Origin: an uncultured Gammaproteobacteria bacterium
GTDB lineage: Bacteria; Patescibacteriota; Microgenomatia; UBA1406; HO2-37-13b
Direction: 5' to 3'
NCBI GenBank assembly: GCA_964556475.1
Contig: CAZKVU010000005.1
Span: 1-59,719 of the forward strand
Length of the DNA stretch: 59,719 nt
Shown here: positions 30,642 to 56,811 of the stretch, in pieces
How the letters are laid out: every line of letters starts with the position of its first letter
Position numbering within the stretch: position 1 is the stretch's first letter
Made by a program: the position numbers and the translations under genes
Notes under the pieces: model-generated
The model's input: the letters and a program-made list of their open reading frames with translations, nothing else
Databases searched by the model: none
Told to the model about the DNA's origin: nothing

Positions 30642-30643
30642 AC

Positions 30644-31795: not shown

Positions 31796-31805
31796 CAATA
31801 AAAAC

Positions 31806-32108
31806 ATGGAAAGTCCAATTAAATTATGGAGGCGTCAAAAAACGGTAAAAAAACTCCTTAACCAAAAGGGGAAGATTATTTCATGGACAGTTATTCATGT
31901 TGCCGGACATGCATATGCAGAGCATACGCCTTATCCGGTTATTTTAGTTGAATTAACAAATGGTAAACGGGTGTATGGTCAACTTGTTGATTTTAATGAT
32001 GAAGATTTGCTAATCGGCCAATCTGTAGCATCAGTGTTACGAATTTTGCGTACGTCAAAAACAGACCTTATTGCCTATGGTTTGAAATTTAGGCCAGTAA
32101 AGAGTTAA
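31806..32108 (+). CDS. DUF35 OB-fold protein (thiolase/HMGCS complex scaffold-like), lacking Zn-ribbon
   Basis: ATG at 31806. About 100 aa. GKIISWTVIHV ... YPVILVELTNGKRVYGQLVD ... IGQSV resembles the DUF35 OB-fold. No CxxC pairs are present. Confidence 0.6.
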   Translation: MESPIKLWRRQKTVKKLLNQKGKIISWTVIHVAGHAYAEHTPYPVILVELTNGKRVYGQLVDFNDEDLLIGQSVASVLRILRTSKTDLIAYGLKFRPVKS

Positions 32109-32125
32109 CGACCAGAAGAAAAATT

Positions 32126-35456: not shown

Positions 35457-35762
35457 TTAAACAAAAACGTCAACTCCTAAAATGAAACCTAATACTTTAA
35501 CTATAACAAAACTGAGAACAATAATAATAAACCCGAAAAATGCATAAAGGAACATTGTACGGGCAGCTGCAACACGTTCTGGATCTCCACCAGCTGTAAT
35601 AATCATGAATGATGCCCTGAAGAGAATGAAAAGTAGTACAATCGCTGATCCAACAAGCAAAATCGGAATGAGAACGTTGGTGAATGTACTGATATTAACG
35701 AATCTCGCAGGAGGGAAATATGTTGGCAGTGTTTTCTCATCAACTTGCGCGAGCAGGTGCAT
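35457..35762 (-). CDS. T4SS-pilin-like (TrbC/VirB2-like, CPR-type) membrane protein
   Basis: 101 aa with two TM helices flanking ITAGGDPERVAAARTMF. Its N-terminus MHLLAQV is paralogous to MLLAQAQ of the downstream gene. Confidence 0.5.
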   Translation of the reverse strand: MHLLAQVDEKTLPTYFPPARFVNISTFTNVLIPILLVGSAIVLLFILFRASFMIITAGGDPERVAAARTMFLYAFFGFIIIVLSFVIVKVLGFILGVDVFV

Positions 35763-35897: not shown

Positions 35898-36593
35898 ATG
35901 AATAGTGAGCTCCCGAATCACGTCGCCCTGATTCTTGATGGTAATAGACGATGGGCAAAACAGCACCATCTTCCATCAATTGAGGGCCATAGGAAAGGAG
36001 CTGGAACAATTCGTAAAATAATTAGATATCTAGCGGCGAAAGGTGTTCATACGATAACTATTTGGATTTTTTCGACTGAGAACTGGAACAGGGATGAAGA
36101 TCAGGTACATGGATTAATGAAGCTTTTTGAGGAATTTGCAGGTGCATATTTAAAGGATGCTGAAGAAGAAGGAATGAGAATCTGTCACCTTGGTCGTAAA
36201 GATAGGTTAAGCGAATCATTGCGTAACAAAATCGCAGAATTCGAAGCAAAAACATCGCATTTTGAAAAAAATACATTAAATATTGCATTGGATTATGGAG
36301 GGAGAGATGAGCTCATTCGGGCATTTACAAAACTCTCAGAATCATCTGGTAGTGATAAGTCAATTACAGAAAAAAATATTGATGCCGCTCTTGATACAGC
36401 CGGACAAAAATATCCGAATCCTGATATGATTATTCGGACAGGTGGTGAGCAGCGTATATCCGGATTTATGCTGTGGCAGGGTGCTTATGCAGAATATTTT
36501 TTTACCGATACGCTTTTGCCGGATTTATCTGAGAATGAGATAGAGAATATGTTGTCAGAGTATGCACAACGACAGCGCAGATATGGAGCATAA
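35898..36593 (+). CDS. uppS: Isoprenyl transferase (undecaprenyl diphosphate synthase family)
   Basis: HVALILDGNRRWA and IRTGGEQRISGFMLWQ motifs. Confidence 0.85.
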   Translation: MNSELPNHVALILDGNRRWAKQHHLPSIEGHRKGAGTIRKIIRYLAAKGVHTITIWIFSTENWNRDEDQVHGLMKLFEEFAGAYLKDAEEEGMRICHLGRKDRLSESLRNKIAEFEAKTSHFEKNTLNIALDYGGRDELIRAFTKLSESSGSDKSITEKNIDAALDTAGQKYPNPDMIIRTGGEQRISGFMLWQGAYAEYFFTDTLLPDLSENEIENMLSEYAQRQRRYGA

Positions 36594-36604
36594 AATCAAT
36601 AAAA

Positions 36605-37648
36605 ATGTTTAATCCAACTTTTTCCATAACAAATAAAATACTCAAAAATATTGGAGTCATCGAGGCGTCCAGGGAAGTTATTAATGACTCTCCATTACTT
36701 CCTTTATGGGAAAAAAGATTCAAGGAAGATGCTGTTATCAGAACAGCTCATCATGGTACACATATTGAGGGAAATAGACTGAATTTAAGCGAAGCAAAAG
36801 AGGTTTTGATGGGAGGAGATGTGGTTGGGAGGGCGCGAGATGTTCAGGAAGTTATAAACTATCGCCGAACTCTGCAGGTTATTGAGGATGAAGCAGAAAG
36901 AGATATTAAAAGAATTACAGATGGGACTATCAAAAAGCTCCATAGAACAGTTGTTGCAGGGATTTTAAATCCTGAGCAGATTGGCGAATTCAGAACAAAG
37001 CAGGTTGTGATTAGAAATAGCGAGAATGGTGAGATTACTTTTCGTCCGCCTGCAGCAGTTGAAGTACCATTCCTTATTCGAGAATTTTTATACTGGCTTA
37101 ATAAGACAACTTCTGACGATTTGCACCCAGTGCTCAAAGCAGGGATAGCTCATCATGAATTAGTGCGCATTCATCCGTTTATTGACGGAAACGGACGTGT
37201 CGCTCGGGCGCTTGTCACCTTGATTTTGTATCTGGATGGGTATGATATTCGACAGTTCTTCTCACTTGAGGAATATTACGACAAAGATGCGCTCTCATAT
37301 TATGAAAATCTACAAAAGGCCTCAGGAGGGGATATCAGCGCGTGGCTTGAATATTTTGTTCTTGGTGTAGCTATAGAGTTTGAACGAATAAAGAAAAAAA
37401 TTCTGAAATTATCAAAAGATACCTATCTTAAAGAAAAACTTGGGGGGAAGCAGGTGTTTATCACCGAAAGGCAAACCCGGATTATTGAGTATATTCAGAG
37501 CGTTGGGTACGTCCAGAACAAAATGTTTGGCGATATGGTTGAAGATGTATCTGAAGATACAATTCTGCGGGATCTAACAGACCTTATTGATAAAGGAATC
37601 GTTAAGAAGGTCGGCAGCACGAAAGCCGCTCGATACGAGATGGTGTAA
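36605..37648 (+). CDS. Fic family protein (AMPylase-type) with C-terminal wHTH-like region
   Basis: Fic motif HPFIDGNGRVARA and an N-terminal GTHIEGN inhibitory-helix-like motif. Confidence 0.8.
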   Translation: MFNPTFSITNKILKNIGVIEASREVINDSPLLPLWEKRFKEDAVIRTAHHGTHIEGNRLNLSEAKEVLMGGDVVGRARDVQEVINYRRTLQVIEDEAERDIKRITDGTIKKLHRTVVAGILNPEQIGEFRTKQVVIRNSENGEITFRPPAAVEVPFLIREFLYWLNKTTSDDLHPVLKAGIAHHELVRIHPFIDGNGRVARALVTLILYLDGYDIRQFFSLEEYYDKDALSYYENLQKASGGDISAWLEYFVLGVAIEFERIKKKILKLSKDTYLKEKLGGKQVFITERQTRIIEYIQSVGYVQNKMFGDMVEDVSEDTILRDLTDLIDKGIVKKVGSTKAARYEMV

Positions 37649-37657: not shown

Positions 37658-39445
37658 ATGCAATTTCAAAAACTTGCTCATTATTTTGAAAGGATTGAGG
37701 GTACGCCTTCTCGTCTGGAAATGACGAAGATCCTTGCGGATTTATTCAAGGAAATCGAATTGGACGAAATGGATAAGGTCCTGTACCTCCTTCAGGGCCG
37801 ATTGGCTCCACAATATGTTAAGATCGACTTCGGACTTGGTGAGAAAATGGTCCTTCGGTCTGTTGAGAAAGCCCTTAATGTTGATCATAAGGTTTTCATG
37901 AATGAATACAAAAAAGTTGGCGACATCGGAAAGACAGTTGAAGAATTTAAAAAATCGATACGGAGCATTATGGAGGTCGATTTAACGGTGACTCAGGTAT
38001 TTGAAAAACTTTTTCTATTAGCAAAGGCGGCTGGGGAGGGATCTCAGGATGCGAAAATATCACACTTGGTTGATTTGGTGCAATCGGTTGATGGATTGTC
38101 AGCTCGATATATCGTGCGTATTCCAACAAATACCTTAAGATTAGGTTTTTCAGACATGACCATACTTGATGCTTTTTCATGGATGCTTACCGGGGATAAA
38201 TCTTTACGAGAATCAATTCAGAAGGCTTATCATGTACGGCCAGATCTTGGTGAAATTGGAAAGATTGTAAAAAGGGACGGACTTAAAGGATTAAAGAATA
38301 TTAAGCCACATGTATTTACACCTATTCTTATGATGAAGGCACAGCGCCTTCCGACAACAAAAGATATTGTTGAAAAAATTGGGCAGGGCGTCATAGAACC
38401 AAAATATGATGGTTTCCGGTTGCAAGCTCATTATAAAAAAAACGCGAAGGGCTCTGATGTTAAACTTTTTTCTCGAGGGCTTGAGGACGTTACGTACATG
38501 TACCCAGATATTGTTGAAGGTGTAAAAAAAGAGGTGAAGGCAGATGAAATGATCCTTGAAGGTGAGGCAATTGGGTTTGACGACCATACCGGTACCTTTT
38601 TACCTTTTCAGGAAACCGTCCAGCGAAAAAGAAAATACGATATTTCGGAAAAAGCAAAAGAAATTCCACTCAAAATGTTTGTATTTGAGGTGCTCATGGT
38701 TAATGGATTGTCGCTGCTTGAAACGCCATTGAAGGATCGCGTTAAGGAGCTTCGCAAACATATCACATTACACGACGATATTTTTAAAGATACTATTTTG
38801 ATCTCTCCAGAAATTACAGCTGATAGTGAACAGCAAATCGATGTCATTTTTAATGATTCAATTTCAAAGGGATTAGAAGGTGTTATGGTAAAGAAGCTTG
38901 ATGGGACGTATCAACCAGGCGCACGAGGATGGAATTGGATTAAGTATAAACGGAGTTATTCGCACAAAATTAATGATACGATTGACTGCATTGTCATGGG
39001 GTATGATATTGGAAAAGGTAAACGGGCGGGTTTTGGCATCGGGGCATTTCTTGTAGGTGTATATGATCAGGAGTCTGATCAATTTAAAACGGTGGCAAAA
39101 ATTGGTACAGGTCTTTCTGACGATGAATGGCGAGAGCTTAAGAAGCGGTCGGATGCACTTTCTTCACAAAAAAAACCTGCATTATACGACGTTGATAAAA
39201 TTATGGACGTTGACGTGTGGGTAAAACCATATATTATTGTCGAGATTCGTGCAGATGAAATCACGCGATCAAATATGCATACTGCAGGTCGAACGCTTAA
39301 ACCTTCTAAAACAGGAAAAGCACAGGATGTCGATAATTTAGGCTATGCGTTAAGATTCCCTCGTCTGGAAAAATTCCGCACTGATAAAACACCTTCAGAT
39401 GCAACCTCTGTTGCCGAAGTACAGGCGATGTTTGAAGCAAAATAA
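37658..39445 (+). CDS. lig: ATP-dependent DNA ligase, archaeal/eukaryotic Lig1-type with N-terminal DNA-binding domain
   Basis: 595 aa with motif I EPKYDGFR, EGEAIG, EGVMVK, NWIKYK and a C-terminal OB domain. Confidence 0.85.
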   Translation: MQFQKLAHYFERIEGTPSRLEMTKILADLFKEIELDEMDKVLYLLQGRLAPQYVKIDFGLGEKMVLRSVEKALNVDHKVFMNEYKKVGDIGKTVEEFKKSIRSIMEVDLTVTQVFEKLFLLAKAAGEGSQDAKISHLVDLVQSVDGLSARYIVRIPTNTLRLGFSDMTILDAFSWMLTGDKSLRESIQKAYHVRPDLGEIGKIVKRDGLKGLKNIKPHVFTPILMMKAQRLPTTKDIVEKIGQGVIEPKYDGFRLQAHYKKNAKGSDVKLFSRGLEDVTYMYPDIVEGVKKEVKADEMILEGEAIGFDDHTGTFLPFQETVQRKRKYDISEKAKEIPLKMFVFEVLMVNGLSLLETPLKDRVKELRKHITLHDDIFKDTILISPEITADSEQQIDVIFNDSISKGLEGVMVKKLDGTYQPGARGWNWIKYKRSYSHKINDTIDCIVMGYDIGKGKRAGFGIGAFLVGVYDQESDQFKTVAKIGTGLSDDEWRELKKRSDALSSQKKPALYDVDKIMDVDVWVKPYIIVEIRADEITRSNMHTAGRTLKPSKTGKAQDVDNLGYALRFPRLEKFRTDKTPSDATSVAEVQAMFEAK

Positions 39446-46522: not shown

Positions 46523-46663
46523 ATGTCGAAGCGAACATATCAACCAAAAAAACTGAAAAGAGTACGCAAACATGGATTTCTTGCGAAAAACAGCACAAAA
46601 TCCGGAAGATTGGTCATGAAAAAAAGACAACAAAAGGGTAGGGCTCGAATAGCTTTGTCATAA
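46523..46663 (+). CDS. rpmH: 50S ribosomal protein L34
   Basis: Hand-translated 46 aa, [46 protein letters not shown]. Not in the ORF track because it is under 60 aa. Confidence 0.85.
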
Positions 46664-46670
46664 CCTTTAC

Positions 46671-47501
46671 ATGGGAGACATATTTCATATCATCCTTGTT
46701 AACCCAACAGCAAATATCCTTCTTTTGTTTTTGTATATATTCACATCACTAAGTATTCCTGGAGCATTCGGATGGGCAATTCTTGCTCTTACCAGCACTG
46801 TTCGTTTGATTTTCAATCCATTTTATGAGAAACAAACAAAAATGGCTCAGGAAATGGCTGCATTAAAGCCGCACATGGAGCAGTTGGAAAAAAAGTATAA
46901 GAATGACAAACAGCAACTCCAGAAAGAGCAGCTTAAACTCTATCAGGAAAGAGGACTTAATCCGGCAGCAGGCTGTATTGTTGCAATAGTTCAAATACCA
47001 TTCTTTATAGCTTTATATAGAGTTATTTTGATGTTCCTCAATGGTAATACTCAAAAAGCTATTGATGGTATTAATAAGTCTGTTTATTTTGACGCGCTCA
47101 AAATTTCAAAAATTGATCCATGGTTTTTTGGTTTCAGCTTAACAACTGCACCATCACACTTTAAAGAAGCAGGATGGTACTATTTACTCGTCCCAGTTGT
47201 GACTGCTTTCTTGCAGTATTATCAGGTAAAGATGCAACAGTCCCCTTCTACTCCAGCAGCTCCACTAAAAGAATCTAAAAAAGTCGAAAAGAAAGATCAG
47301 AAGAAAGATAAAAAAGGTGGTCCGGATGACTTCCAAAGCATTATGCAAAAGCAAATGTTATTTATGTTTCCACTGATGATCGGATATTTTTCATATATTC
47401 TTCCTGTTGGCTTGGCGATATACTGGAATATATTTTCACTCTTTAGCATTTATCAGTACAAACAAAGTTCATGGAAAACCAAGAAAGAATCAAAGAACTA
47501 A
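46671..47501 (+). CDS. yidC: Membrane protein insertase YidC (short, Gram-positive-like form)
   Basis: 276 aa with LKPHMEQLEKKYKNDKQQLQKEQLKLYQERGLNPAAGC...QIPFFIALY. Confidence 0.8.
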   Translation: MGDIFHIILVNPTANILLLFLYIFTSLSIPGAFGWAILALTSTVRLIFNPFYEKQTKMAQEMAALKPHMEQLEKKYKNDKQQLQKEQLKLYQERGLNPAAGCIVAIVQIPFFIALYRVILMFLNGNTQKAIDGINKSVYFDALKISKIDPWFFGFSLTTAPSHFKEAGWYYLLVPVVTAFLQYYQVKMQQSPSTPAAPLKESKKVEKKDQKKDKKGGPDDFQSIMQKQMLFMFPLMIGYFSYILPVGLAIYWNIFSLFSIYQYKQSSWKTKKESKN

Positions 47502-47923
47502 CCGGTGAATTATTTAATAAGCTGGGCTTCACTGTTACCGTTGAAGTGAGCGAGGAAGGTGAAGGTTATTATGTGCACGTTAAAACTGATGAGGATGCTT
47601 CAATGTTGATTGGACGTCATGCACGAATGTTGGCGTCGCTGCAGAGGGTTTTGTCCGCAATGCTGTATAAACAGCTCGAGAATAAAGTGGATGTTTTGCT
47701 TGATATTAATGATTACCGGGCCGGACAAAAAGAACGTTTGAGAAATATTGCACAGAATGTTGCGCAAAGAGTTCTTGATGAAGACCGATCGGCGCGTCTT
47801 GCATCATTCTCTCCATACGAACGCCGCATTATTCACGAATTTGTTTCTGAGAACTATTCGACTCTTGAATCTCATTCAGAGGGCGAAGGAAACCAACGCG
47901 TGCTTGTTATTCAGAAGAGATAA
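47471..47923 (+). CDS. jag: Jag/KhpB-type RNA-binding protein (KH + R3H domains)
   Basis: 150 aa with the R3H motif ERRIIHEFVS, in the canonical position after yidC. Confidence 0.75.
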   Translation: MENQERIKELTGELFNKLGFTVTVEVSEEGEGYYVHVKTDEDASMLIGRHARMLASLQRVLSAMLYKQLENKVDVLLDINDYRAGQKERLRNIAQNVAQRVLDEDRSARLASFSPYERRIIHEFVSENYSTLESHSEGEGNQRVLVIQKR

Positions 47924-48009
47924 TAGTCGGGTTACACAGGCCGCTTCTTCTTCTCGCTTATTCTTTTGCAATCATCTATACTGATATTATATGCGGTGTA
48001 CCGTACTTC

Positions 48010-48038
48010 TTGACGTGGAAATAATAATAAGGTATAAT
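48010..48038 (+). promoter_or_regulatory. Near-consensus sigma70 promoter TTGACG-17 nt-TATAAT
   Basis: TTGACG at 48010-48015, a 17-nt spacer and TATAAT at 48033-48038, ending 22 nt upstream of ATG 48061. Confidence 0.5.
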
Positions 48039-48060
48039 ACTATAAGTTTAGAAAACTTAA

Positions 48061-48300
48061 ATGAAAGTCTTTAATAGAAATATTAGACTTGTTAGTTTTC
48101 TACCATTCCTGGTTTTACTTCTTGCGGCCCCTCTCTTACTTCTCTTTGACACAGTCTACTACATGCTTGTTCGACCAGCTTGCTTAAATTGTGGATCACT
48201 TGGTGAGTTCGTAAAGAATGCTTCGTTAACAGTACATTTGTTTAGTACTATCGGATTTGCTGGTTTGCGTGATGTTACCAGTTTGCATAAACGATCATGA
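48061..48300 (+). CDS. Hypothetical 79-aa protein with N-terminal TM/signal-like segment
   Basis: LVSFLPFLVLLLAAPLLLLF. Its stop overlaps the start of the 1355-aa ORF (ATGA at 48297-48300). Confidence 0.4.
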   Translation: MKVFNRNIRLVSFLPFLVLLLAAPLLLLFDTVYYMLVRPACLNCGSLGEFVKNASLTVHLFSTIGFAGLRDVTSLHKRS

Positions 48301-51300
48301 CAGGAGGACCTGATGTAGCGGTGGCAACAGCAGAGGCGGTCGGAGTAATCCCGGTTGAAACAAGCACCGGAATAGCCGAACAAAGACCGCGTGATCTAAA
48401 GGCTGAATTCATTGCGCAATATGTCAGGTATGACGATGAAGGCAAACTTATTCTACCTGATGCCACACGAAATAGACTTGAAGAAATGAGGGTTCTCAAT
48501 GTTGCAGAAGCTGATACCGTACTCATTGGTAAAGGAGATGATTTTTCAAAGAATTATGTTCATGCAACAACTATCGGACTTATTGAAGCTGCAAAAGCAG
48601 GGTTGCTTCCCGATATTACTCCAGAGGCTCGGGTAATATTCACAGAATTAAGTACGCGTGCTGTTATACCTCGTTCTGGAGCACCATATTTAGCAGATAT
48701 TGTTGACGTGCTGCTTGAAGGAAACCCGTTGTTTTCTTCAGGCGATCATCCACTGACAAAATTTGAAGAAACATACATGAAGCTCGTCCCGCAGAATCCG
48801 ATTGCAGCAAAGATCATCTGGAGAGCACTTACTCAAGCTCATCGGACAAACCAAATCGTTGTTGATAAGTTTGAGGAGAAGTTTCCAAACCCGACCACGG
48901 CGATTGAACGACTAAAAGAAGCGCGTCAAAGACAACAAGCCGAGGCGGCTGGCCAAACCGGTACAACACCTAGCGATAGAACTAAGCAAGATGAGGCGCC
49001 TACTCAGAGACCAAAAACAGCACCTCGCGTAAAAACAGAGCAAGAGGTAGCGCTCGAAAAGGAGTATATGGATTTATACAGGACTGTGGCGACGCAAATA
49101 AGCGATTACGAAAAACGGGTATACAGTAAGTGGGAGCCTACTCTTGACAGTCAGAAAAGAATTATGCGGGACAAGGATGGAAATCCACTGAATCCGGCGA
49201 TATCACCTGATCGTAGAAGATTGTTAGATTCAATCCTATCACAAGGAAAATCTCCTGAAGGGTTAAGTGACGATGATAAAGAATTTTTACGATCGATTGG
49301 AATAGAGACAACGAGTCTTACACGACTAGCTTCATTATATGGAAGTGTTGGTAGTGATAGCTCATTTAGAATTGGAGAGTATACACCTATTAGAGCAATG
49401 ACGCCAGATGAAATGAAAGAGTATATAAAAGGTTTGACAAATGATGCTGAAAGAAGTGTTGGAACCGATCTTGCTGCCCCATTTGTTGAAATAACACTTA
49501 GATTTCAGAGAGATTTTGTTGAGGGGACGCCGATGTGGAAAAAATATTTAGAACAGGTACAAAATCCGCGTTTCCCAGGTGATCCAAGCAAAAAGATTTG
49601 GGTATTTAAGGAAGATCGAAACCTGCGGAAAGAATTTCAGCGTGAATTTGTTGATCGGCCGCTCTATAGCTTCTTTGAACGCATTGATAAAGACGTAACT
49701 CGAACATACAGGGATATATATAATCCCATTATTCACGGACGTTACCTGGAACATGTTATGGGTTTGTTACGAGGACTGCAAAGGAATCTTGAAGGTAAGG
49801 TGGATATAGCAAGCGGTATTGACGAACGATTTCAGAGAATCCATTTAGGAACTGACCCGACTAATAAACTGAATGTGCAAATTGGCCACTCTCTTGATTT
49901 TATGGATACCATGATTAATTATGGAAATTCATTGCAGAATTATGGACAAATCTTCCATGATCTTCCTATCTATGCTAATGATCCAAGTTCGATTGAAAAA
50001 TGGGGAGGCATGCTTGCATCACTACCTGCTTCACAACAGGCAATGTTTCTTGATGATCCATTGATTGAAATTGCTCAGTCGGTATATGGACGACATTTAC
50101 GATCGAGAATTGCACTTAATGGTGATAAAATTCCTGCCGATATTTTAGGGGGAAAGTATGATCCTGAATTGGTTAGGTCGAGCATACCAGATTTAGTAGC
50201 TGTAAGAAATGATCTTACGCGTATTGTTGAAATACGCAGACCTGAGGGTGGGAGAACAATTGAAGACTGGGAATTTGCCCGCGCAGCAACATTTGCCCGA
50301 GGTATTCAGCTACTCAATTTGAGAGCAATAGAAATTATTGGATCAGCTCGTATTGCAGATCACTATCGTGGTATTCCGGACCTCGTAGCAAAAACTTCAC
50401 AGCGTCATAAATGGAATCAGGGACGTGGAGGACAGCATAACCAGTTAACGCCGGAAGTTATTGGATCAATGTATACGAACATTAACCCAGTACGAGGAAA
50501 TTGGCTTGATAAGCTTGTTTCTCGAATGACCGCTACAAAACACGATCCAGTTGCTATCAAAAAGCTCGCAGAGGAATCATTACATGCATTTGGTCTACAA
50601 GGAATGGATTTTGATCTTACCGATCAATATTCAACATATCTTGAATTGATGAATATTTTCAATCTGGGAAGTCTATTTACCCGACAAGGATGGAGAATTC
50701 AACATATCCTCGGATATGAGGATAGGCCTGGTCACAAAGGAATTGCTGATGAAATGAAGAGCGCAGGTTTGAATAAAGGCGAAATGATGACATGGGACAG
50801 AGCTCAGTGGGGTCAATTTTACGACATTATTACGTCTCAAATTGGGTCAGGTGCGACATGGTTCTGGGGCGGGCAGGAAAATAGTCATAGTGGTTTGGCT
50901 GCCTCAATGACCGAACAACTTTTCCATCATTATGGAAAATCACAGGGTTGGAGCGATGACGAAATTCATCACAAGCAGCATTCATATTGGACTGAAGGAA
51001 AAGATACATTCAAAGTAATTGGAGTTAAAGTTCAAGGTCATCAAGAATCTGCGGCATATGCTCGACGAGAAATGGATTTAACAAGTATATACCAGCAGCA
51101 TTTACATCAGTCACGAGGTCTTCTGTTAGAACGTATGATGCGAAGGAGTCCTGGAGATTTCCTACTTACTGCAATTCAAATGGCACCTCAACTTGTCGAG
51201 TATTATAAAGATGAGGCAACGAGCGTGTGGGGTACTCCAACAGATGAAAAAATAATCAATCAGCAACGAAAGCTTATTAATCTTTTTGGTGAGCATGGAT

Positions 51301-52364
51301 TTAAACAATTGCAGGGTCTAAGGGATTGGGTTATTAAGCTTGATACAGCTTACAGTGGAGATGATCGGTTTAAAGAAGAAATAAATCCAAATTATGCTGA
51401 TCCTCAACTAAAAAGAAAGGCAATTGTTGAATTTGCCATTAAGGAATTAGGAGTGGCCCTTGAAAATACTCGTCAAATTCATGAATTGAGATCCCGTGAT
51501 GGTACTCGATCTAACGATTTAACAATGCAGCCGGATGCAATTCCTGATCATGATGGCAAAGGAACACTGCGTAAACTTGTTTTTGGGGAAGATGCAGCTG
51601 ATAAAACGGCATTACTATCAATGTGGACATCTGACGATCTTGATCATGGAGATGTTGATAAAATTAATCAAAAAAGTTTCTTTTTCGGCTTGGCCAAAGC
51701 ATGGACGACACTTAATGGTGATACTCATATAGACACAGCGGATATTGATAATTATCAAATCTATGAGGATATAGCAGGGGTAGGTGAACTCGTTATTAAA
51801 CGACTCGTGGGCGATCAGGTCGCATGGAATGAGGTTACAGAACAGTTAATGGGCATTGATGAACTTATCGAGGAGGTAGGGCGTACAGGTGAGCTGGAAC
51901 CAGTCTATGAATTGGCAAAGCATATTTTTGAGTTGCGCAAGATTATAGGGGAGGAACCTGCAAAAAAGGCAGTATATATAATGGCAAGTATGGTCGCAAC
52001 ATATATGTGGGAGCACGATTTAGCACGATTCCCGTTCATTACCAATACTCCATGGGGATTCTTCCTACAACAATCTCTAGGTGATAATATCTCTCTATCA
52101 CGACTTCGATTTGGTCGCCATGCTCATTCGATGGATACAGATCAGATCCGCTCATTTTTCCATACGTTGGGATTTGAATTAGGGGTAATTGGTACAGAGG
52201 GAAGATGGTCGTATCAACACGGAAAAGAGTCATTTGATGCAACTAATACTGAATGGTTTTTGTCAGAATTAATGGTCGGTGGAGGTCTTACTATAGCTAC
52301 GATCATCATTTATCTCATGATAAAGAAAGCTATGGAAGAGCAATCCGGAGGAGGTCATCATTAA
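48297..52364 (+). CDS. Giant (1355 aa) orphan protein, no signal peptide, single C-terminal TM (tail-anchored topology)
   Basis: Uninterrupted 4.07-kb ORF with a Q/A/T/P-rich linker near residues 210-250 and His-rich patches. The C-terminus is GGGLTIATIIIYLMIKKAMEEQSGGGHH. No motif recognised. Confidence 0.7.
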   Translation: MTGGPDVAVATAEAVGVIPVETSTGIAEQRPRDLKAEFIAQYVRYDDEGKLILPDATRNRLEEMRVLNVAEADTVLIGKGDDFSKNYVHATTIGLIEAAKAGLLPDITPEARVIFTELSTRAVIPRSGAPYLADIVDVLLEGNPLFSSGDHPLTKFEETYMKLVPQNPIAAKIIWRALTQAHRTNQIVVDKFEEKFPNPTTAIERLKEARQRQQAEAAGQTGTTPSDRTKQDEAPTQRPKTAPRVKTEQEVALEKEYMDLYRTVATQISDYEKRVYSKWEPTLDSQKRIMRDKDGNPLNPAISPDRRRLLDSILSQGKSPEGLSDDDKEFLRSIGIETTSLTRLASLYGSVGSDSSFRIGEYTPIRAMTPDEMKEYIKGLTNDAERSVGTDLAAPFVEITLRFQRDFVEGTPMWKKYLEQVQNPRFPGDPSKKIWVFKEDRNLRKEFQREFVDRPLYSFFERIDKDVTRTYRDIYNPIIHGRYLEHVMGLLRGLQRNLEGKVDIASGIDERFQRIHLGTDPTNKLNVQIGHSLDFMDTMINYGNSLQNYGQIFHDLPIYANDPSSIEKWGGMLASLPASQQAMFLDDPLIEIAQSVYGRHLRSRIALNGDKIPADILGGKYDPELVRSSIPDLVAVRNDLTRIVEIRRPEGGRTIEDWEFARAATFARGIQLLNLRAIEIIGSARIADHYRGIPDLVAKTSQRHKWNQGRGGQHNQLTPEVIGSMYTNINPVRGNWLDKLVSRMTATKHDPVAIKKLAEESLHAFGLQGMDFDLTDQYSTYLELMNIFNLGSLFTRQGWRIQHILGYEDRPGHKGIADEMKSAGLNKGEMMTWDRAQWGQFYDIITSQIGSGATWFWGGQENSHSGLAASMTEQLFHHYGKSQGWSDDEIHHKQHSYWTEGKDTFKVIGVKVQGHQESAAYARREMDLTSIYQQHLHQSRGLLLERMMRRSPGDFLLTAIQMAPQLVEYYKDEATSVWGTPTDEKIINQQRKLINLFGEHGFKQLQGLRDWVIKLDTAYSGDDRFKEEINPNYADPQLKRKAIVEFAIKELGVALENTRQIHELRSRDGTRSNDLTMQPDAIPDHDGKGTLRKLVFGEDAADKTALLSMWTSDDLDHGDVDKINQKSFFFGLAKAWTTLNGDTHIDTADIDNYQIYEDIAGVGELVIKRLVGDQVAWNEVTEQLMGIDELIEEVGRTGELEPVYELAKHIFELRKIIGEEPAKKAVYIMASMVATYMWEHDLARFPFITNTPWGFFLQQSLGDNISLSRLRFGRHAHSMDTDQIRSFFHTLGFELGVIGTEGRWSYQHGKESFDATNTEWFLSELMVGGGLTIATIIIYLMIKKAMEEQSGGGHH

Positions 52365-52399
52365 CATAACACTTGCAGTACATCTTCACCATAGTTACA

Positions 52400-53272
52400 A
52401 TGAAATGTATGCTTCAGAACTTTGTTAAAAAGTGTTTTATTGTATTTATACTTATATTTTATTCTTTTGCGCTTGTAAGTCCTATTGCCTTTGCACAAGA
52501 CGGTGATAACCCACCCGATCCACCACAAGATGAGCCATCGAATCCAGGAAGAGGGCCTGATCGTACAAAGCCGATGGCAACTGAGGGAGATAGAATTATC
52601 GGAAAAATCGGGACTGGGAAACCAAATGAAGGATGTTTGGCTCCTGTTGAGATAAAGAAGGCTGATATTGTGGACAATGTGGATTTCGATATTCCATACG
52701 TACCAGGATGGTTGGAAGGTGCTTTTCTGTCAAGCCTCACAGGATCATTAGGCGATTCGGGAGCCATTTTTAAAGACATTGAAGATAATGTTAATGCTGG
52801 ACATGACCCGAGTGTTTTGTGTTTAGAGTCTGCAACACCTAGTACAACAGACCCCGAAGAGGTTAAAGCAGGAAAATGTACATGTAACCCTAAACAAGGT
52901 TTCACGATTAAAGAAGATTTCTGTTCAAAAGTTGCCACATCTGAACAATCAAGTTGTCAAACATGCGCTCAAAGTAACGAAGGCGTTTGGACAGCCCTCG
53001 GGTGCATAAAGTTTAATTTGGGCATGTTTATTACTGGAACTCTCTTTAGGCTAAGTATAGGTATCGGTGGGATGATTGCCCTCGGATGTATTTTATATGC
53101 AACAGTTTTACTCCAAATATCGCGAGGTGAACCAGACAAAATTCAACATGCACGTGAACTTATTACATCATGTATTATTGGATTACTTTTAATTATCTTT
53201 TCAATATTTATTCTGCGCTTTGTTGGAGTCGATATATTAAAACTGCAAGATTTAGGAGCCCCGCTGAAATAG
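52400..53272 (+). CDS. Secreted Cys-rich protein fused to a C-terminal T4SS-pilin-like two-TM domain
   Basis: ATG at 52400 gives the signal peptide MKCMLQNFVKKCFIVFILIFYSFALVSPIAFAQD. The C-terminus GVWTALGCI...ISRGEPDKIQHARELITSCIIG parallels the pilins at 34972-35762. Confidence 0.55.
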   Translation: MKCMLQNFVKKCFIVFILIFYSFALVSPIAFAQDGDNPPDPPQDEPSNPGRGPDRTKPMATEGDRIIGKIGTGKPNEGCLAPVEIKKADIVDNVDFDIPYVPGWLEGAFLSSLTGSLGDSGAIFKDIEDNVNAGHDPSVLCLESATPSTTDPEEVKAGKCTCNPKQGFTIKEDFCSKVATSEQSSCQTCAQSNEGVWTALGCIKFNLGMFITGTLFRLSIGIGGMIALGCILYATVLLQISRGEPDKIQHARELITSCIIGLLLIIFSIFILRFVGVDILKLQDLGAPLK

Positions 53273-53285
53273 TCAAACGCAACAA

Positions 53286-55019
53286 TTATGGATGTGTTCC
53301 TTGGGTACCCCCAGTACCTGCAGGTGGATCAAGTGGCTTAAAATATTTTTGGAATAGTTGAGCCTGGGTTGGAGGAATCAGCCTTTCAAAGAACTTACCT
53401 TTAGGCTGGATACCCGCCAAATGTGCAATTTGACCAATTGATCCAAAAGATCCTAGACCTTGTTGTACGCCACCAGTAACCGCCGTTACGCCGCTAAAGA
53501 ACATCCCAACTCCGATATCGAGTCCGAGCTCCGGAATACCTAAGAGTCCCTTTAATAATCGAACGAGCTCAGGTATTAATAGAATGAGGCCCAATCCGAT
53601 TATTGCACCAAAATCTGCCGCAGTAAAACCTTGTCTAATAAAAGGCAAATCCAATGGAGGGATCGTTTGAGAATTATTAATTTCAATAATAAGTCTACCT
53701 GTAGCTAATACCACTGCGACTACTGGAAACGTTAATAATTCTCCAAATAATGTTTTTATCCAATAACTAAACGGGTTTTTACCTGGAATAATTTGAAAGA
53801 GTATGATTAAGGGTGCAAAAATAATGAGCAGAACCACTTTAATGTATGCACCAAGTAATAAAAAGAATAGTCTAAAGAGAAAATATAAGAGCGTAATGAG
53901 AATAAGAAATCCCATTATGTAACCTGCGGCCGTAGTTTGCGCTGATAGGATAGCAAAAACTACCGTAACGGCGAGAAAATCTAGAACCTTTGCAACTCCC
54001 CCAAAATTTATTCCGAAATTTCCTCCGAAACCTAGTGCTGATACACCTCCGCTAGCACCAAGGTCCTTAAAAATATCAGTAAATAATGAAAACTTGAAAA
54101 TATTAAATCTTATAAGCAATGCATTAACAGCACCTCCTAATATGCTATTAATACTACCTTGAATAATGGATGGCATAACGTTATAAATCGCCTTACCTGT
54201 AGAAATAGCCGACGAACCACCCTCCATTAAATTAATTGAAGCAAATCCTGAGCCAATATATCTGTTTACCATATCCAGTCTAAAAACCTCAGAAGCCTGT
54301 CCCTCAGGAAAACCAGATGCAACAATATAGACAAAAGCGCCCATGGAAGCATACATTAAATCAATCATTGCCCCAGCAATAGGGAATGATAATGTGATAA
54401 GAATTAGTGTGATAACAATTCTTGGCAATGCATTTTCTATGGTGACAAGTGTTTGCCCACCTATTTGCCATCTGAACATAATCATAAATCCAACAAATAC
54501 CAAGAGCAGAACAATGAGTAAATAGCTAAAGTTTCTAAAAACTTCCCAAATTTTAAGATACCCTCTAATTGAGGCAAGTCCTACACCTTCATAAGCATAG
54601 GTTTGGGGAATAAAGTCATTATTTTGTAATTTATACATTGCGTAAGAAACTCCTGATGCCGGGACTTTTTCAACAGGTGCTGTTAATAATGGCGTTAGAT
54701 ATCCGAGGACACTCATTTGATGATTTTCCTCAGCTGTGCCTTTAGAACATTGTTCGCCGACAAATCCGCATAGCAGAGCTTTATAACGTGCTATTTTTAT
54801 TACTTTCTCCTGTTTGGTAAAGGATGGGTCATTTTGGAATTCCTTAATGAAGTTATCAGAGCTTGTTTTGAGGGAGTAAATTTCAGGTTTGTATTGAGCA
54901 GTGTTTTTAGGCTTAGTAAGATAAAAGTATGCGTTAATGATTGTCACAAGAACGCCGGTTAATACAAAACCAAATAAGAGTACTTTTTGTACCCTCTTAA
55001 GAAGCTTTAGAATCCTCAT
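53286..55019 (-). CDS. Large polytopic membrane protein (possibly VirB6/TrbL-like)
   Basis: 577 aa with about 10 or more hydrophobic segments and Gly-rich stretches (GASGGVSALGFGGNFGINFGG). The assignment is based on context only. Confidence 0.5.
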   Translation of the reverse strand: MRILKLLKRVQKVLLFGFVLTGVLVTIINAYFYLTKPKNTAQYKPEIYSLKTSSDNFIKEFQNDPSFTKQEKVIKIARYKALLCGFVGEQCSKGTAEENHQMSVLGYLTPLLTAPVEKVPASGVSYAMYKLQNNDFIPQTYAYEGVGLASIRGYLKIWEVFRNFSYLLIVLLLVFVGFMIMFRWQIGGQTLVTIENALPRIVITLILITLSFPIAGAMIDLMYASMGAFVYIVASGFPEGQASEVFRLDMVNRYIGSGFASINLMEGGSSAISTGKAIYNVMPSIIQGSINSILGGAVNALLIRFNIFKFSLFTDIFKDLGASGGVSALGFGGNFGINFGGVAKVLDFLAVTVVFAILSAQTTAAGYIMGFLILITLLYFLFRLFFLLLGAYIKVVLLIIFAPLIILFQIIPGKNPFSYWIKTLFGELLTFPVVAVVLATGRLIIEINNSQTIPPLDLPFIRQGFTAADFGAIIGLGLILLIPELVRLLKGLLGIPELGLDIGVGMFFSGVTAVTGGVQQGLGSFGSIGQIAHLAGIQPKGKFFERLIPPTQAQLFQKYFKPLDPPAGTGGTQGTHP

Positions 55020-55070: not shown

Positions 55071-55562
55071 TTATGGGTACGTTATGTTTAAAGTAGCTAT
55101 TTGAGCATCAGAAAGACCGATTGACTTCATCCAACTTAATGCATTTTTTTGGGCCGTTGTTGAATTATTTTTACTTGAAACAATAAACGTTATTGTTTCA
55201 TTATTCCCTTCACCTAATACTGCCTTCATTGAGAATGACGCTTCTTCATGAGGAAGTTTATTAAAAAGATATGCATCAGGGCTATTTTCGAGTTGTGATT
55301 TATCAATTTGTTCATCATCGTCAATCCTTTTGCTGTAATCAAGGTCAATCGGTGATTCTGTTGGCGAGGGGTTTTGACTATTATTTTGCTGCAGGATATT
55401 ATCGCTATTTTGAATGAGCGTTTTTGTCGGCGTGCGATTAACATCACTAAGTGACGAATTTATTTTTTTTTCAGTGCGCTTATTAAGGATAAAGAATAAA
55501 GTAAGTATAAATATAAAGAAAATAATAAGAGCAATTCCCGATAAAATGAGTTTGTTTCTCAT
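55071..55562 (-). CDS. Hypothetical membrane-anchored protein
   Basis: 163 aa with an N-terminal TM and an Asn/Ser/Gln-rich linker. No family recognised. Confidence 0.45.
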   Translation of the reverse strand: MRNKLILSGIALIIFFIFILTLFFILNKRTEKKINSSLSDVNRTPTKTLIQNSDNILQQNNSQNPSPTESPIDLDYSKRIDDDEQIDKSQLENSPDAYLFNKLPHEEASFSMKAVLGEGNNETITFIVSSKNNSTTAQKNALSWMKSIGLSDAQIATLNITYP

Positions 55563-55569: not shown

Positions 55570-56811
55570 TTATAGTCTTAGAAAACCACCAAAACTTGAA
55601 TCATTTGTTGTATACATTCTAGCGTTAAGACGAGCACATCCACTGCATCCCCTATTTGCTTCTGCGACAAAGAATTTATTGCCATCGACTACTCGAGTAA
55701 CGTATGCAATATGCCCACAATCTTGATAAGGCTTTCCATCAGGTGCACAATTAACACCGGTATGTGTCCAGACTGCTAAATCATTAACTTGAGGTTTCCC
55801 GCCTGAGGCTGCGCTGAAATAGGTGTATGGCGACCTGTTCGCTGCATACGAAGCTGCATTACCCGTGTGATTTGAATTTAAACCTTGCTGAGCTGCGATT
55901 GCTCCTTTGACAAAACCAACGCATTGTAATCCACCAATAGAATGAAATGCGTTAGCTGAATTCATGATTTTTGTTTGGGCGAGTTCGTCATTTTTAGATC
56001 CAATGGTAAATCCTTTCATACACAATGAGTTTTTTCCATCAACCCTTCCACCCGAACATTGCTGCATAATAAATTCTGCGAGTTTGTTTGCAAAGTTGGC
56101 ATCAGCACTAGATGGCGCTTTTGGTTGGGGGGGTGTAGGGTTTTCTGGTGAAGGACCTCCAGGTGTTACAGTCGGTGGATTGGATGCCTTTTTTGATCTT
56201 TCAGCCGCTCCGTCTTCTCCTTCACATTTGTAGAAATTGCAATAGACGTCGTTAATAATATCAACAGAACCATTCTCTGACGTTGATAAATTAAACAGAT
56301 TAGCCCCTCCTAAAGGGTCGCTATTAGTGCATCGCGTACCTGTATCGATTACAGAACGAGAAAGCAACTCAGGTCCTTCATATAGCTCTAATTCAACAGT
56401 TCCGCAATTAACACTTTGATGTTTAACCGAATGAATGGATTCAGCAGCACTTATTGTTAAGTTACCATGATCAAGTTCGTGATTGAAATTAACTCTTTTA
56501 TTTTGTTCACACTTTGAGTCGTAGCTTTGATTGTAGACTTCATCTGATAAATCGCACCAGTTAATTTTATACTCAAGATTGGTAGTATTTGAGAAATGTT
56601 TAGCAAAAACAGCCACGCTCCATTCCCATTCTTTAGTAGTAGACTTTGGTGCTGAAACTATGCGAAATTGAACATCATAATTTTCACTTGCACTGGCGCT
56701 TCCTGTTATATCTTGAATGTACTGAAATCCAGCATATCCAATGGTCACAACAAAAATCGCCAAAAAAGGTATGAGATTTTTGAAAATATTTTTATTGCTT
56801 AGATTGTCCAT
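55570..56811 (-). CDS. CHAP-domain peptidoglycan hydrolase with N-terminal TM and unknown Cys-containing domain
   Basis: 413 aa with a Pro-rich linker (PPTVTPGGPSPENPTPPQPK). The C-terminal CHAP-like domain has the nucleophile GGLQCVGFVKG and His in CGHIAYV. Confidence 0.65.
   Translation of the reverse strand: MDNLSNKNIFKNLIPFLAIFVVTIGYAGFQYIQDITGSASASENYDVQFRIVSAPKSTTKEWEWSVAVFAKHFSNTTNLEYKINWCDLSDEVYNQSYDSKCEQNKRVNFNHELDHGNLTISAAESIHSVKHQSVNCGTVELELYEGPELLSRSVIDTGTRCTNSDPLGGANLFNLSTSENGSVDIINDVYCNFYKCEGEDGAAERSKKASNPPTVTPGGPSPENPTPPQPKAPSSADANFANKLAEFIMQQCSGGRVDGKNSLCMKGFTIGSKNDELAQTKIMNSANAFHSIGGLQCVGFVKGAIAAQQGLNSNHTGNAASYAANRSPYTYFSAASGGKPQVNDLAVWTHTGVNCAPDGKPYQDCGHIAYVTRVVDGNKFFVAEANRGCSGCARLNARMYTTNDSSFGGFLRL

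What the first reader, a model, noticed from the sequence alone, without database searches (positions are those of the whole stretch)
48297..52364. 1355-aa tail-anchored orphan protein, translationally coupled to a small TM protein
This is the longest ORF in the window.
- It has no signal peptide and no nucleotide-binding, protease, glycosidase or repeat motif that I can recognise.
- It has an Ala/Val/Gly-rich N-terminus, a Q/A/T/P-rich linker (RQRQQAEAAGQTGTTPSDRTKQDEAPTQRPKTAPR) and His-rich patches (HHYGKSQGWSDDEIHHKQHSYW).
- It ends in one TM helix followed by EEQSGGGHH.
- In-frame stop TAA at 48288 fixes the start at 48297, so it is not a frameshifted fusion with the upstream TM ORF.
- The ATGA overlap implies a fixed stoichiometric pairing with that ORF.

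A giant cytoplasm-facing protein tethered by its last 25 residues is an unusual architecture for bacteria.
Basis: seen in the sequence. Interest (0 to 1): 0.7.

Follow-up and report, generated by a model that had tools for sequence, protein, structure and literature searches.

The report
Giant tail-anchored protein, pilin-linked module
The 1355-residue gene is real but not an orphan: it belongs to an undescribed protein family, found so far only in Microgenomates-type ultra-small (CPR) bacteria, with a confidently predicted fold that matches nothing known, and it always sits beside a pilin-like gene and a multi-pass membrane protein gene, so it is probably part of an uncharacterised cell-envelope machine.

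Summary
The ORF (48297-52364, +) and its features are confirmed: the ATGA overlap with a 79-aa membrane-protein ORF, no signal peptide, one C-terminal TM helix and zero cysteines. "Orphan" is wrong. An exhaustive HMMER scan found 73 clusters of homologues, nearly all 1050-1450 aa, with the same architecture. All named source genomes are Roizmanbacteria, Microgenomates or Patescibacteria. Pfam, NCBIfam, PHROGs, PADLOC and PDB sequences gave no hit. AlphaFold2 gives a confident, mostly helical body for residues 420-1355 (pLDDT 87.8, pTM 0.89). Foldseek finds no relative in PDB or BFVD. In 21 of 21 informative loci the gene lies within 55 nt of a VirB2-like (PF18895) pilin-domain gene and next to a convergent polytopic membrane protein gene. 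A small bitopic protein and a CHAP or C39-like peptidase follow. No VirB4 lies within 10 kb, and VirB6/VirB8 homology is not supported. The small upstream protein is a real, conserved CxxC family. It occurs in only 9 of 14 loci and abuts the giant gene in 3 of those, so the pairing is frequent but not obligatory. My best reading (about 0.4) is a cytoplasmic, membrane-tethered platform of a pilin-associated envelope complex. Topology and function remain untested.

The parts
47945..48060 (+). Highly conserved non-coding leader and promoter region upstream of the small ORF. It contains the sigma-70-like promoter TTGACG-17-TATAAT at 48010-48038.
   Evidence: The promoter scan gives 11 of 12 matches. 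The region is 95.7% identical to L001, against 77.7% for the giant CDS and 84.5% for the jag CDS. No stable RNA fold is predicted (z = +1.28).
48061..48300 (+). Gene for a 79-aa membrane protein: one TM helix (aa 10-28), then the conserved R-[PS]-[SA]-C-L-x-C loop. Its stop overlaps the giant gene's start (ATGA).
   Evidence: - It is 100% identical in amino acids to L001, with 20 synonymous and 0 non-synonymous differences.
- The family alignment has invariant P24, F29, D30, Y34, R38, C41, L42, C44, F50, S55 and L56.
- There are 23 clusters, all 62-108 aa; every source name is 'hypothetical protein', from Roizmanbacteria or Patescibacteria.
48297..52364 (+). Giant protein gene, 1355 aa, 153.6 kDa, pI 5.7, 0 Cys.
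   Evidence: describe the gene. dN/dS is 0.064 against L001. The family has 73 clusters.
48297..49898 (+). Variable N-terminal half (aa 1-534). It has a disordered acidic N-terminus (aa 1-32), helical bundles at aa 31-217 and 248-450, and a lineage-specific disordered Q/A/T/P linker at aa 210-247.
   Evidence: AlphaFold2 of aa 1-450 gives pLDDT 79.9 and pTM 0.49. Family conservation and occupancy are low here. Foldseek against PDB gives a best E of 0.36.
49899..52244 (+). Conserved core (aa 535-1316). It is a single, mostly alpha-helical body carrying the family motifs FHDLPIYA (553-560), HKW-x-QGRGG (704-712), R-x-GWR (796-800) and RRSPGDFL (949-956).
   Evidence: - AlphaFold2 of aa 420-1355 gives pLDDT 87.8 and pTM 0.89.
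- Foldseek finds no match: PDB best E 0.039 with TM at most 0.11; BFVD best E 0.015.
52269..52361 (+). C-terminal TM helix (aa 1325-1342) plus charged tail KKAMEEQSGGGHH (aa 1343-1355).
   Evidence: Hydropathy averages 1.9 over 19 residues. A helix plus a tail of about 12 aa, consensus KKAxEExEGKKK, is present in 60 of 61 full-length relatives.
52373..53272 (+). Pilin-like protein (299 aa by the ORF list; the likely start is M10 at 52400). It has a signal peptide, a Cys-rich extracytoplasmic domain (12 Cys) and a C-terminal VirB2-type two-helix hairpin.
   Evidence: - PF18895 T4SS_pilin hits at E = 6.8e-6 with 26.5 bits, against a cut-off of 26.6.
- phmmer links it to small PF18895 pilins (E 1.5e-7).
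- It lies within 55 nt of the giant gene in 21 of 21 informative loci.
53286..55019 (-). Convergent 577-aa polytopic membrane protein: 8 hydropathy-grade segments and an extracytoplasmic loop with invariant C84 and C91.
   Evidence: - It is present next to the giant-pilin pair in every informative locus.
- The alignment is A6.
- There is no Pfam hit at E<=1 in 18 members and no PDB sequence hit.
- hhalign against pCF10 PrgH gives probability 1.4%.
55071..55562 (-). 163-aa bitopic protein (N-terminal TM helix).
   Evidence: Homologues of 144-175 aa sit in the same position in 11 loci. No PDB hit. hhalign against PrgL gives probability 4.6%.
55570..56811 (-). 413-aa membrane-anchored, Cys-rich CHAP-domain peptidase, a candidate wall hydrolase. 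Other lineages carry a Peptidase_C39_2 protein in this position.
   Evidence: PF05257 CHAP hits at E = 3.7e-9. C39_2 proteins occupy the same position in L002, L006 and others.
46523..47923 (+). Context genes rpmH (46523-46663), yidC (46671-47501) and jag/khpB (47471-47923), immediately upstream.
   Evidence: Searches identify them. They are adjacent to the module in 14 loci, including L006 where the block is rearranged.

Best explanation
The 1355-aa protein is the window's member of a conserved, lineage-restricted family. All named source genomes are Roizmanbacteria, Microgenomates or Patescibacteria.

It is the large subunit of a five-gene envelope module:
- the giant protein;
- a VirB2-like pilin-domain protein with a Cys-rich ectodomain;
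- a polytopic membrane protein;
- a small bitopic protein;
- a CHAP or C39-type peptidase.

Proposed mechanism:
1. In this lineage a dedicated sigma-70-type promoter drives the small, giant and pilin genes.
2. The giant protein is translated by re-initiation at the ATGA overlap.
3. It folds in the cytoplasm into a helical body of about 150 kDa.
4. It is then inserted post-translationally by its last ~30 residues, as a tail-anchored protein. A YidC-type insertase, encoded two genes upstream, could do this.
5. In the membrane it acts as the cytoplasmic platform of the complex formed with the pilin hairpin and the polytopic protein. The peptidase opens the wall.

**Shown:** the gene is real and under purifying selection; the family, architecture, predicted fold and gene linkage.

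**Inferred:** N-in topology, physical association with the neighbours, the platform role, and any link to secretion or pilus assembly.
For: **Real, constrained gene**
- dN/dS is 0.064. There are 73 homologue clusters, aligned to their very C-termini.

**Architecture conserved**
- None of 61 full-length members has an N-terminal hydrophobic segment. 60 of 61 have the C-terminal TM plus a tail of about 12 aa.

**Folded globular body rather than a fibrous adhesin**
- pLDDT 87.8 and pTM 0.89.

**Cysteine pattern**
- The giant protein has 0 Cys (family 0-5, often odd numbers). The exported neighbours are Cys-rich: pilin 4.0%, CHAP 3.2%, and an invariant Cys pair in the polytopic protein's loop.

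**Linkage survives rearrangement**
- Giant and pilin are within 55 nt of each other in 21 of 21 informative loci, in either order (L013 and L024 have pilin then giant) or orientation (L003, L012).
- The five genes stay contiguous in the rearranged L006. Insertions occur between the small and giant genes but never inside the giant-pilin-polytopic unit.

**Module genes evolve at similar, elevated rates**
- 77-84% aa identity against 88-96% for housekeeping neighbours.

**Insertion route is plausible**
- Oxa1/YidC-type insertases insert tail-anchored helices and translocate flanks shorter than about 50 aa (PMC12981334).

**Wider context**
- Patescibacterial VirB2-like pilin arrays are abundant in Microgenomatia. 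T4SS parts there are dispersed, and VirB6 is reported as scarce (PMC12102498).
Against: - Topology is untested, and the positive-inside rule does not favour N-in. The tail carries about 4 K/R (net +1.3) and the N-flank is net -1.1.
- The TM helix is only moderately hydrophobic (1.9, against 2.7-3.0 for the neighbours' anchors).
- No ATPase motif occurs in the giant protein, and no VirB4 or VirD4 lies within 10 kb in any locus. What the platform would serve is therefore unknown.
- The polytopic and bitopic partners have no detectable VirB6 or VirB8 homology.
- The pilin-domain hit of the adjacent gene is just below Pfam's cut-off.
- Housekeeping synteny is also strongly conserved in this clade (ligase-DUF2298-ValRS-rpmH-yidC-jag in L027-L029). 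Part of the linkage may therefore be inherited gene order.
Confidence: 0.4

Rival explanations
1. The giant protein is exported or injected cargo, or a distal component of the module. It would be made without a signal peptide and moved out by the polytopic protein and pilin apparatus. In many lineages an adjacent ClpB-type AAA+ unfoldase could help. The C-terminal hydrophobic helix plus basic tail would act as the translocation signal and/or as an anchor in the cell's own or the host's membrane.
For: - The charge distribution fits tail-in, bulk-out.
- The conserved basic C-terminal tail KKAxEExEGKKK recalls C-terminal secretion signals (own knowledge). Tail-anchored T4SS effectors are known (PMC12981334).
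- The protein is extremely Cys-poor.
- Its TM helix is only moderately hydrophobic.
- It lies next to a pilin-like gene and a wall peptidase.
- A ClpB/ClpC-like AAA+ with an N-terminal extension and a Zn-ribbon lies beside the module in L002, L004, L006, L013, L020, L023 and L027.
- The N-terminal half is variable and the C-terminal half conserved.
Against: - No recognisable secretion ATPase (VirB4 or VirD4) lies in or near the module.
- The ClpB-like gene is absent from the window's lineage (window, L001, L005) and may simply be the housekeeping chaperone.
- The giant gene is single-copy, syntenic and uniform in length, and it is the best-conserved large protein of the module (84% against 77-81%). 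That pattern is more typical of machinery than of effectors.
- A compact 150-kDa fold with pTM 0.89 would have to be fully unfolded for export.
Confidence: 0.2
2. The giant protein has a function unrelated to the pilin-like neighbours, for example envelope, lipid or division housekeeping specific to Microgenomatia. The adjacency would reflect inherited gene order in small, highly syntenic genomes.
For: - Long-range synteny of unrelated housekeeping genes is conserved across the same loci.
- No homology links the giant protein to any secretion component.
- The module lacks hallmark T4SS ATPases.
Against: - Adjacency persists through at least four kinds of rearrangement: a swap in pilin order, pilin inversion, the L006 block rearrangement, and insertions upstream only.
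- Intergenic gaps of 55 nt or less suggest co-transcription.
- The module genes share an elevated evolutionary rate.
Confidence: 0.2
3. The ORF is an artefact, an isolated orphan, a frameshifted fusion with the upstream TM ORF, or a divergent member of a known class (polymorphic toxin, helicase, phage tape-measure).
For: Only the initial word-index searches, which returned just one close homologue. Foldseek's insignificant hits included tape-measure proteins at E>0.2.
Against: - There are 73 homologue clusters and dN/dS is 0.064.
- The two ORFs are separate in several lineages, and the giant protein's N-terminus is conserved.
- Pfam, NCBIfam, PHROGs and PADLOC give no significant hit.
- The family has no conserved Walker A motif.
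- tblastn finds no match in 50,697 phage or 72,556 plasmid records.
Confidence: 0.02

Closest known systems
Bacterial tail-anchored membrane proteins (own knowledge: E. coli ElaB/YqjD, DjlC, Flk; T6SS TssL)
   Same: No signal peptide, a single TM helix within the last ~35 residues, a very short C-terminal tail, and post-translational insertion thought to involve YidC-type insertases.
   Different: This protein is roughly 5-10 times larger than the known examples (own knowledge of their sizes). It has no sequence or fold relationship to any of them. Its tail is unusually charged, and its orientation is untested.
Patescibacterial T4SS / VirB2-like pilin loci (Quinonero-Coronel et al. 2025, PMC12102498; Wang et al. 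2023 as summarised in PMC12857230)
   Same: - It is adjacent to a PF18895-type pilin-domain gene and a CHAP or C39 wall peptidase.
- It is chromosomal and lies next to rpmH-yidC-jag.
- Further tandem PF18895 pilins occur in the same genome (34972-35762).
- That paper describes Microgenomatia as having dispersed T4SS genes and scarce VirB6.
   Different: - No VirB4 or VirD4 lies within 10 kb.
- The polytopic and bitopic partners are not detectably VirB6 or VirB8.
- The adjacent pilin carries a 190-500-aa Cys-rich ectodomain.
- The T4SS repertoire section of that paper (section 13, read in full) names no giant tail-anchored protein among the components.
Large helical T4SS substrates with C-terminal signals (own knowledge: H. 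pylori CagA) and tail-anchored T4SS effectors (PMC12981334)
   Same: Large, mostly helical, no signal peptide, unique fold, basic C-terminus, and encoded beside secretion-related genes.
   Different: This is a core, syntenic, single-copy gene conserved across a whole class. There is no secretion ATPase nearby and no evidence of translocation.

Membership tests
Tail-anchored membrane protein (topological class) | No N-terminal signal peptide or TM segment | tested here: met
   Hydropathy scans of the window protein and of 61 full-length relatives find none. The N-termini are acidic and hydrophilic.
Tail-anchored membrane protein (topological class) | Single TM helix within the C-terminal ~50 residues, followed by a short tail | tested here: met
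   The TM helix is at aa 1325-1342 and the tail is 13 aa. The family mean tail is 11.9 aa. 60 of 61 members have it.
Tail-anchored membrane protein (topological class) | N-terminal bulk in the cytoplasm (N-in, C-out) | tested here: inconclusive
   The lack of a signal peptide favours N-in. The flank charges (N-flank net -1.1, tail net +1.3) do not. An experiment is needed.
Type IV secretion system (component of) | VirB4-family ATPase encoded in the locus | tested here: not met
   Pfam scans of the window ORFs and of the loci within 10 kb find none (gene tables). The rest of the genome is not visible.
Type IV secretion system (component of) | Homology of the protein itself to a known T4SS subunit family | tested here: not met
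   No Pfam or NCBIfam hit at E<=1. No PDB profile hit. No Foldseek hit. No conserved P-loop.
Type IV secretion system (component of) | VirB2-like pilin adjacent | tested here: met
   PF18895 hits at E = 6.8e-6, 26.5 bits against a cut-off of 26.6, which is borderline. The protein is homologous to small pilins that pass the cut-off (34.1 and 33.0 bits).
Type IV secretion system (component of) | VirB6- and VirB8-like membrane subunits adjacent | tested here: not met
   18 polytopic homologues give no Pfam hit at E<=1. PDB profiles give nothing. hhalign against pCF10 PrgH and PrgL gives probabilities of 1.4% and 4.6%. Extreme divergence cannot be excluded.
   Pfam, NCBIfam, PHROGs and PADLOC give no significant hit: the only match is phrog_26022 at E = 0.081. 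No conserved Walker A. No phage or plasmid tblastn hit.
ORFan (no homologues) | Absence of homologues in large databases | tested here: not met
   73 clusters at 50% identity in 1.84 billion representatives. 24 encoding loci were recovered.

The most novel reading that the evidence does not exclude
The giant protein, pilin-domain protein, polytopic protein, bitopic protein and wall peptidase would together form a previously undescribed, VirB4-independent envelope machine specific to Microgenomatia. In many lineages a specialised ClpB-type AAA+, two more small membrane proteins and a second pilin would belong to it as well. The giant tail-anchored protein, with its unmatched fold, would be either the cytoplasmic engine or scaffold of the machine, or a cargo that plants its C-terminal helix in a host membrane during episymbiosis.
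Probability: 0.2. Interest if true: 0.85.

Novelty: categorically new. Interest (0 to 1): 0.6.

Why it matters
Patescibacteria are thought to depend on host cells. In the one genetically tractable lineage, the T4SS and its VirB2-like pilin array are essential for growth on the host (Wang et al. 2023, as summarised in PMC12857230).

For Microgenomatia the machinery is poorly defined: T4SS genes are dispersed and VirB6 is reported as scarce (PMC12102498).

This family is class-wide and strongly constrained. It encodes a 120-160-kDa protein with a confident but unmatched predicted fold, and its gene is locked to a pilin-domain gene and a conserved polytopic protein. That makes it a concrete candidate for a missing core part of the host-interaction or envelope apparatus.

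It would also be a very large example of a bacterial tail-anchored protein and a candidate new fold.

If the linkage proves to be only inherited gene order, it remains an abundant uncharacterised family worth a DUF entry, but not more.

Tried and rejected
- **Word-index homology searches.** Searches with the full protein and with a 9-sequence profile returned only the query and one 84% relative. The 60-sequence profile timed out. These under-reported the family. The exhaustive HMMER scan was needed.
- **Locus search with the 60-sequence alignment.** The 9-sequence alignment worked.
- **Domain and sequence libraries.** Pfam, NCBIfam, PHROGs, PADLOC and PDB sequence or profile searches on the giant protein gave nothing significant. 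The only hits were low-complexity helical matches such as apolipoprotein A-IV at E = 0.01.
- **Structure searches.** Foldseek of both AlphaFold2 models against PDB, and of the C-terminal model against BFVD, gave nothing with E<0.01 or TM>0.17.
- **VirB6 and VirB8 identity of the neighbours.** This was not supported.
- **RNA element in the conserved leader.** There is no Rfam hit, no stable fold and no inverted repeat.
- **Mobile-element origin.** There is no tblastn hit in the phage or plasmid collections.
- **Extending the window's own contig.** Exact-protein look-up either failed or found another sample's short contig.
- **Alternative start or fusion with the small ORF.** This was rejected because of the in-frame TAA, the conserved N-terminus (M-x-x-x-P-D/E) and the absence of fused forms among 61 relatives.

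Full report
**1. Observation**

- The ORF 48297..52364 (+) encodes 1355 aa and is the longest ORF in the window.
- The sequence shows TAA at 48288-48290 in frame upstream of the ATG at 48297. The upstream 79-aa ORF (48061..48300) ends in TGA at 48298-48300, which gives the ATGA overlap.
- The protein has no cysteine and no Walker A, HExxH or LPXTG motif. It has a single hydropathy-grade TM segment at aa 1324-1342 and nothing hydrophobic at the N-terminus. Self-BLAST shows no internal repeat.
- The quoted linker is at aa 210-244 and the His-rich patch at aa 877-898.

**2. The gene is real, but it is not an orphan**

- A sister contig (L001, from Logan run SRR22452315) carries an 84%-identical 1351-aa orthologue in identical synteny. 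dN/dS is 0.064 (dN 0.10; dS saturated at about 1.6).
- The word-indexed searches found nothing further.
- An exhaustive HMMER scan of 1.84 billion cluster representatives, with aa 156-1355 as query, found 73 clusters: 69 at E<=1e-10 and 48 at E<=1e-30. Nearly all are 1050-1450 aa and align right up to their C-termini.
- Among 61 full-length members, none has an N-terminal hydrophobic segment and Cys counts are 0-5. Sixty end in one TM helix followed by a charged tail of about 12 aa, consensus KKAxEExEGKKK.
- Family-wide motifs are FH(D/N)LP.YA (window aa 553-560), (H/F)(K/N)W..GRG (704-712), R.GWR (796-800) and R.PGDF (949-956), plus many invariant Trp, Arg, Gly and Pro residues.
- Conservation is concentrated in aa 535-1355. 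The N-terminal half, the linker and the His patch are variable or lineage-specific.
- Loci recovered from species-representative genomes come from Candidatus Roizmanbacteria, Candidatus Microgenomates and an unclassified Patescibacteria MAG. Nineteen more loci came from metagenomes.
- tblastn finds no match in the phage or plasmid collections.

**3. No known relatives by sequence or structure**

- Pfam-A, NCBIfam, PHROGs and PADLOC give nothing significant at E<=1; the only match is phrog_26022 at E = 0.081. PDB sequences searched with the single protein and with the family profile give nothing significant.
- AlphaFold2 of aa 420-1355, with a 62-sequence alignment, gives mean pLDDT 87.8 and pTM 0.89. 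The model is one large, mostly alpha-helical body whose last helix is the TM segment plus tail.
- The model of aa 1-450 has pLDDT 79.9 and pTM 0.49. It shows two helical bundles joined by disordered segments at aa 1-32 and 226-239.
- Foldseek finds no match with E<0.01:
  - C-terminal model against PDB: best E 0.039, TM at most 0.11;
  - C-terminal model against BFVD: best E 0.015;
  - N-terminal model against PDB: best E 0.36.
- AFDB and ESM Atlas could not be searched, so the fold is "unmatched" only with respect to PDB and BFVD.

**4. Genomic context**

- The window is a low-G+C (about 38-41%) chromosome segment typical of these genomes. It carries DUF2298, ValRS, rpmH (46523-46663), yidC and jag/khpB upstream of the finding.
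- Downstream of the giant gene lie:
  - a 299-aa protein with a signal peptide, a Cys-rich domain and a C-terminal T4SS_pilin (PF18895) hairpin (E 6.8e-6, 26.5 bits against a cut-off of 26.6);
  - a convergent 577-aa polytopic protein;
  - a 163-aa bitopic protein;
  - a 413-aa CHAP-domain protein.
- I called ORFs in all fetched loci and matched them with phmmer. In 21 of 21 distinct loci whose contig reaches the neighbours, the giant gene is within 55 nt of the pilin-like gene.
  - The order is usually giant then pilin.
  - It is pilin then giant in L013 and L024.
  - The pilin gene is inverted in L003 and L012.
- The polytopic gene is next to the pair in all 21. A 144-175-aa bitopic protein and a CHAP or Peptidase_C39_2 protein follow.
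- In L006 the block is rearranged relative to yidC-jag, but the five genes stay contiguous.
- In L002, L004, L020 and L023 (inverted in L006), the module is followed by a ClpB/ClpC-like AAA+ with an N-terminal extension and a zinc ribbon, then one or two small membrane proteins and a second, small PF18895 pilin; L013 and L027 show at least the ClpB-like gene.
- No VirB4 or VirD4 is seen within 10 kb anywhere.
- The polytopic and bitopic proteins have no Pfam hit (18 members, E<=1) and no PDB sequence hit. hhalign gives no support against pCF10 PrgH (VirB6-like) or PrgL (VirB8-like), at 1.4% and 4.6% probability.
- The only demonstrable T4SS link is therefore the pilin domain. This fits the published picture for Microgenomatia: abundant VirB2-like arrays, dispersed T4SS genes and scarce recognisable VirB6 (PMC12102498).
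- The module proteins are 77-84% identical between the window and L001, against 88-96% for housekeeping neighbours.

**5. The small upstream protein**

- It is a genuine gene. The window and L001 differ at 20 synonymous and 0 non-synonymous sites.
- Relatives at 30-38% identity keep a TM helix followed by R-[PS]-[SA]-C-L-x-C and other invariant residues.
- The profile search found 23 clusters, all 62-108 aa. The source names that exist all read "hypothetical protein", from Roizmanbacteria or Patescibacteria.
- In every context examined it follows jag and lies upstream of a giant-family gene.
- Among 14 loci found through the giant gene in which the jag-to-giant interval is visible:
  - it is present in 9;
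  - it is absent in 5 (L002, L006, L007, L008, L020; HMM search at E<=1);
  - it directly abuts the giant gene only in the window, L001 and L005.
- In the other six loci an XRE-type HTH gene, other genes or the pilin gene lie between them.
- The ATGA coupling is therefore a feature of this sub-lineage, not a family rule.

**6. Mechanism**

What is shown:
- a strongly constrained protein of 120-160 kDa;
- no signal peptide and a C-terminal TM helix;
- a compact helical fold;
- a gene locked to a pilin-domain protein, a polytopic protein, a bitopic protein and a wall peptidase.

My preferred reading (confidence about 0.4) is a tail-anchored, cytoplasm-facing platform of a membrane complex built with these neighbours. 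It would be inserted post-translationally. YidC-type insertases handle tail anchors with flanks shorter than about 50 aa (PMC12981334).

Arguments for N-in:
- No member of the family has a signal peptide.
- The protein is Cys-poor with sporadic odd Cys counts, whereas the exported neighbours are Cys-rich (pilin 4.0%, CHAP 3.2%, an invariant Cys pair in the polytopic protein's loop).
- The predicted body is globular.

Arguments against N-in:
- The flank charges do not follow the positive-inside rule for N-in.
- The helix is only moderately hydrophobic.
- No energising ATPase is identified.

Rivals:
- An exported or injected cargo or distal component that uses the basic C-terminal helix as a signal or anchor (0.2).
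- An unrelated lineage-specific housekeeping function whose adjacency is inherited gene order (0.2).
- An artefact, fusion or known class (at most 0.02, refuted).

These four estimates sum to about 0.8; the remainder is left for explanations not considered here.

**7. Novelty and verdict**

- The family is absent from Pfam and NCBIfam. It has no sequence or structural relatives that I could detect, and it combines an unusual architecture with tight linkage to a pilin-domain gene.
- I rate the protein family and fold as categorically new, with unknown function. The surrounding system resembles patescibacterial VirB2-pilin loci but fails the T4SS membership tests that could be run.
- Interest is 0.6. 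It would be higher if the module proves to be a distinct envelope machine. It would be lower if the linkage is only synteny.

Noticed in passing
window 47945-48300: This is an island of nucleotide-level conservation. The 116-nt region upstream of the small ORF is 95.7% identical to L001. The small ORF has dS 0.46. Flanking genes have dS of about 0.8-1.6 and 78-85% DNA identity. The region contains the TTGACG-17-TATAAT promoter. No Rfam hit, stable fold or inverted repeat was found, so it is probably a protein-bound regulatory region.
   Followed up: partly
window 34972-35454 (-) and 35457-35762 (-): Two tandem small T4SS_pilin (PF18895) genes (34.1 and 28.3 bits, both above the cut-off) lie between the mevalonate-pathway genes and the undecaprenyl-diphosphate synthase gene. 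They are a second, separate pilin locus in the same genome.
   Followed up: partly
L002 16733-21910; L004 18878-23227; L020 10717-15134; L023 17692-22805; L006 3944-7402; L027 19577-: Next to the module, many lineages encode a ClpB/ClpC-like double-AAA+ protein of 1017-1283 aa. It has a low-complexity N-terminal extension of about 240 aa and a C-terminal zinc ribbon. It is followed by a 105-aa and a 230-aa membrane protein and a small PF18895 pilin. This block is absent from the window's lineage (window, L001, L005).
   Followed up: partly
L002 8550-8768; L004 8927-9145; L023 7642-7860; L025 3926-4150: A 72-aa XRE-type HTH gene is inserted just upstream of the giant gene in several lineages. 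In L004 it comes with a 134-aa four-helix-bundle-like ORF. It may be a module-specific regulator.
   Followed up: no
L013 7387-8703; L024 7793-9148; L019 3943-5733; L020 7512-8924; L022 6118-7476: The pilin-like partner varies from about 240 to about 600 aa through its N-terminal ectodomain, while the C-terminal hairpin is kept. In L013 and L024 it precedes the giant gene with a 2-4-nt gap.
   Followed up: partly
window 28490-34964 and 35898-36593: There is a mevalonate-pathway gene cluster: HMG-CoA reductase, thiolase-like protein, two GHMP kinases and diphosphomevalonate decarboxylase. A UPP synthase gene follows. Nearby are an ATP-dependent DNA ligase (37658-39445) and a Fic protein (36605-37648).
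   Followed up: no
window 13729-14454 (+): A 241-aa ORF has 16 cysteines (6.6%) and no Pfam hit. It may be another secreted Cys-rich protein.
   Followed up: no
window 53272-53286: The convergent pilin-like and polytopic genes end only 13 nt apart. The scan found no convincing bidirectional terminator between them.
   Followed up: no
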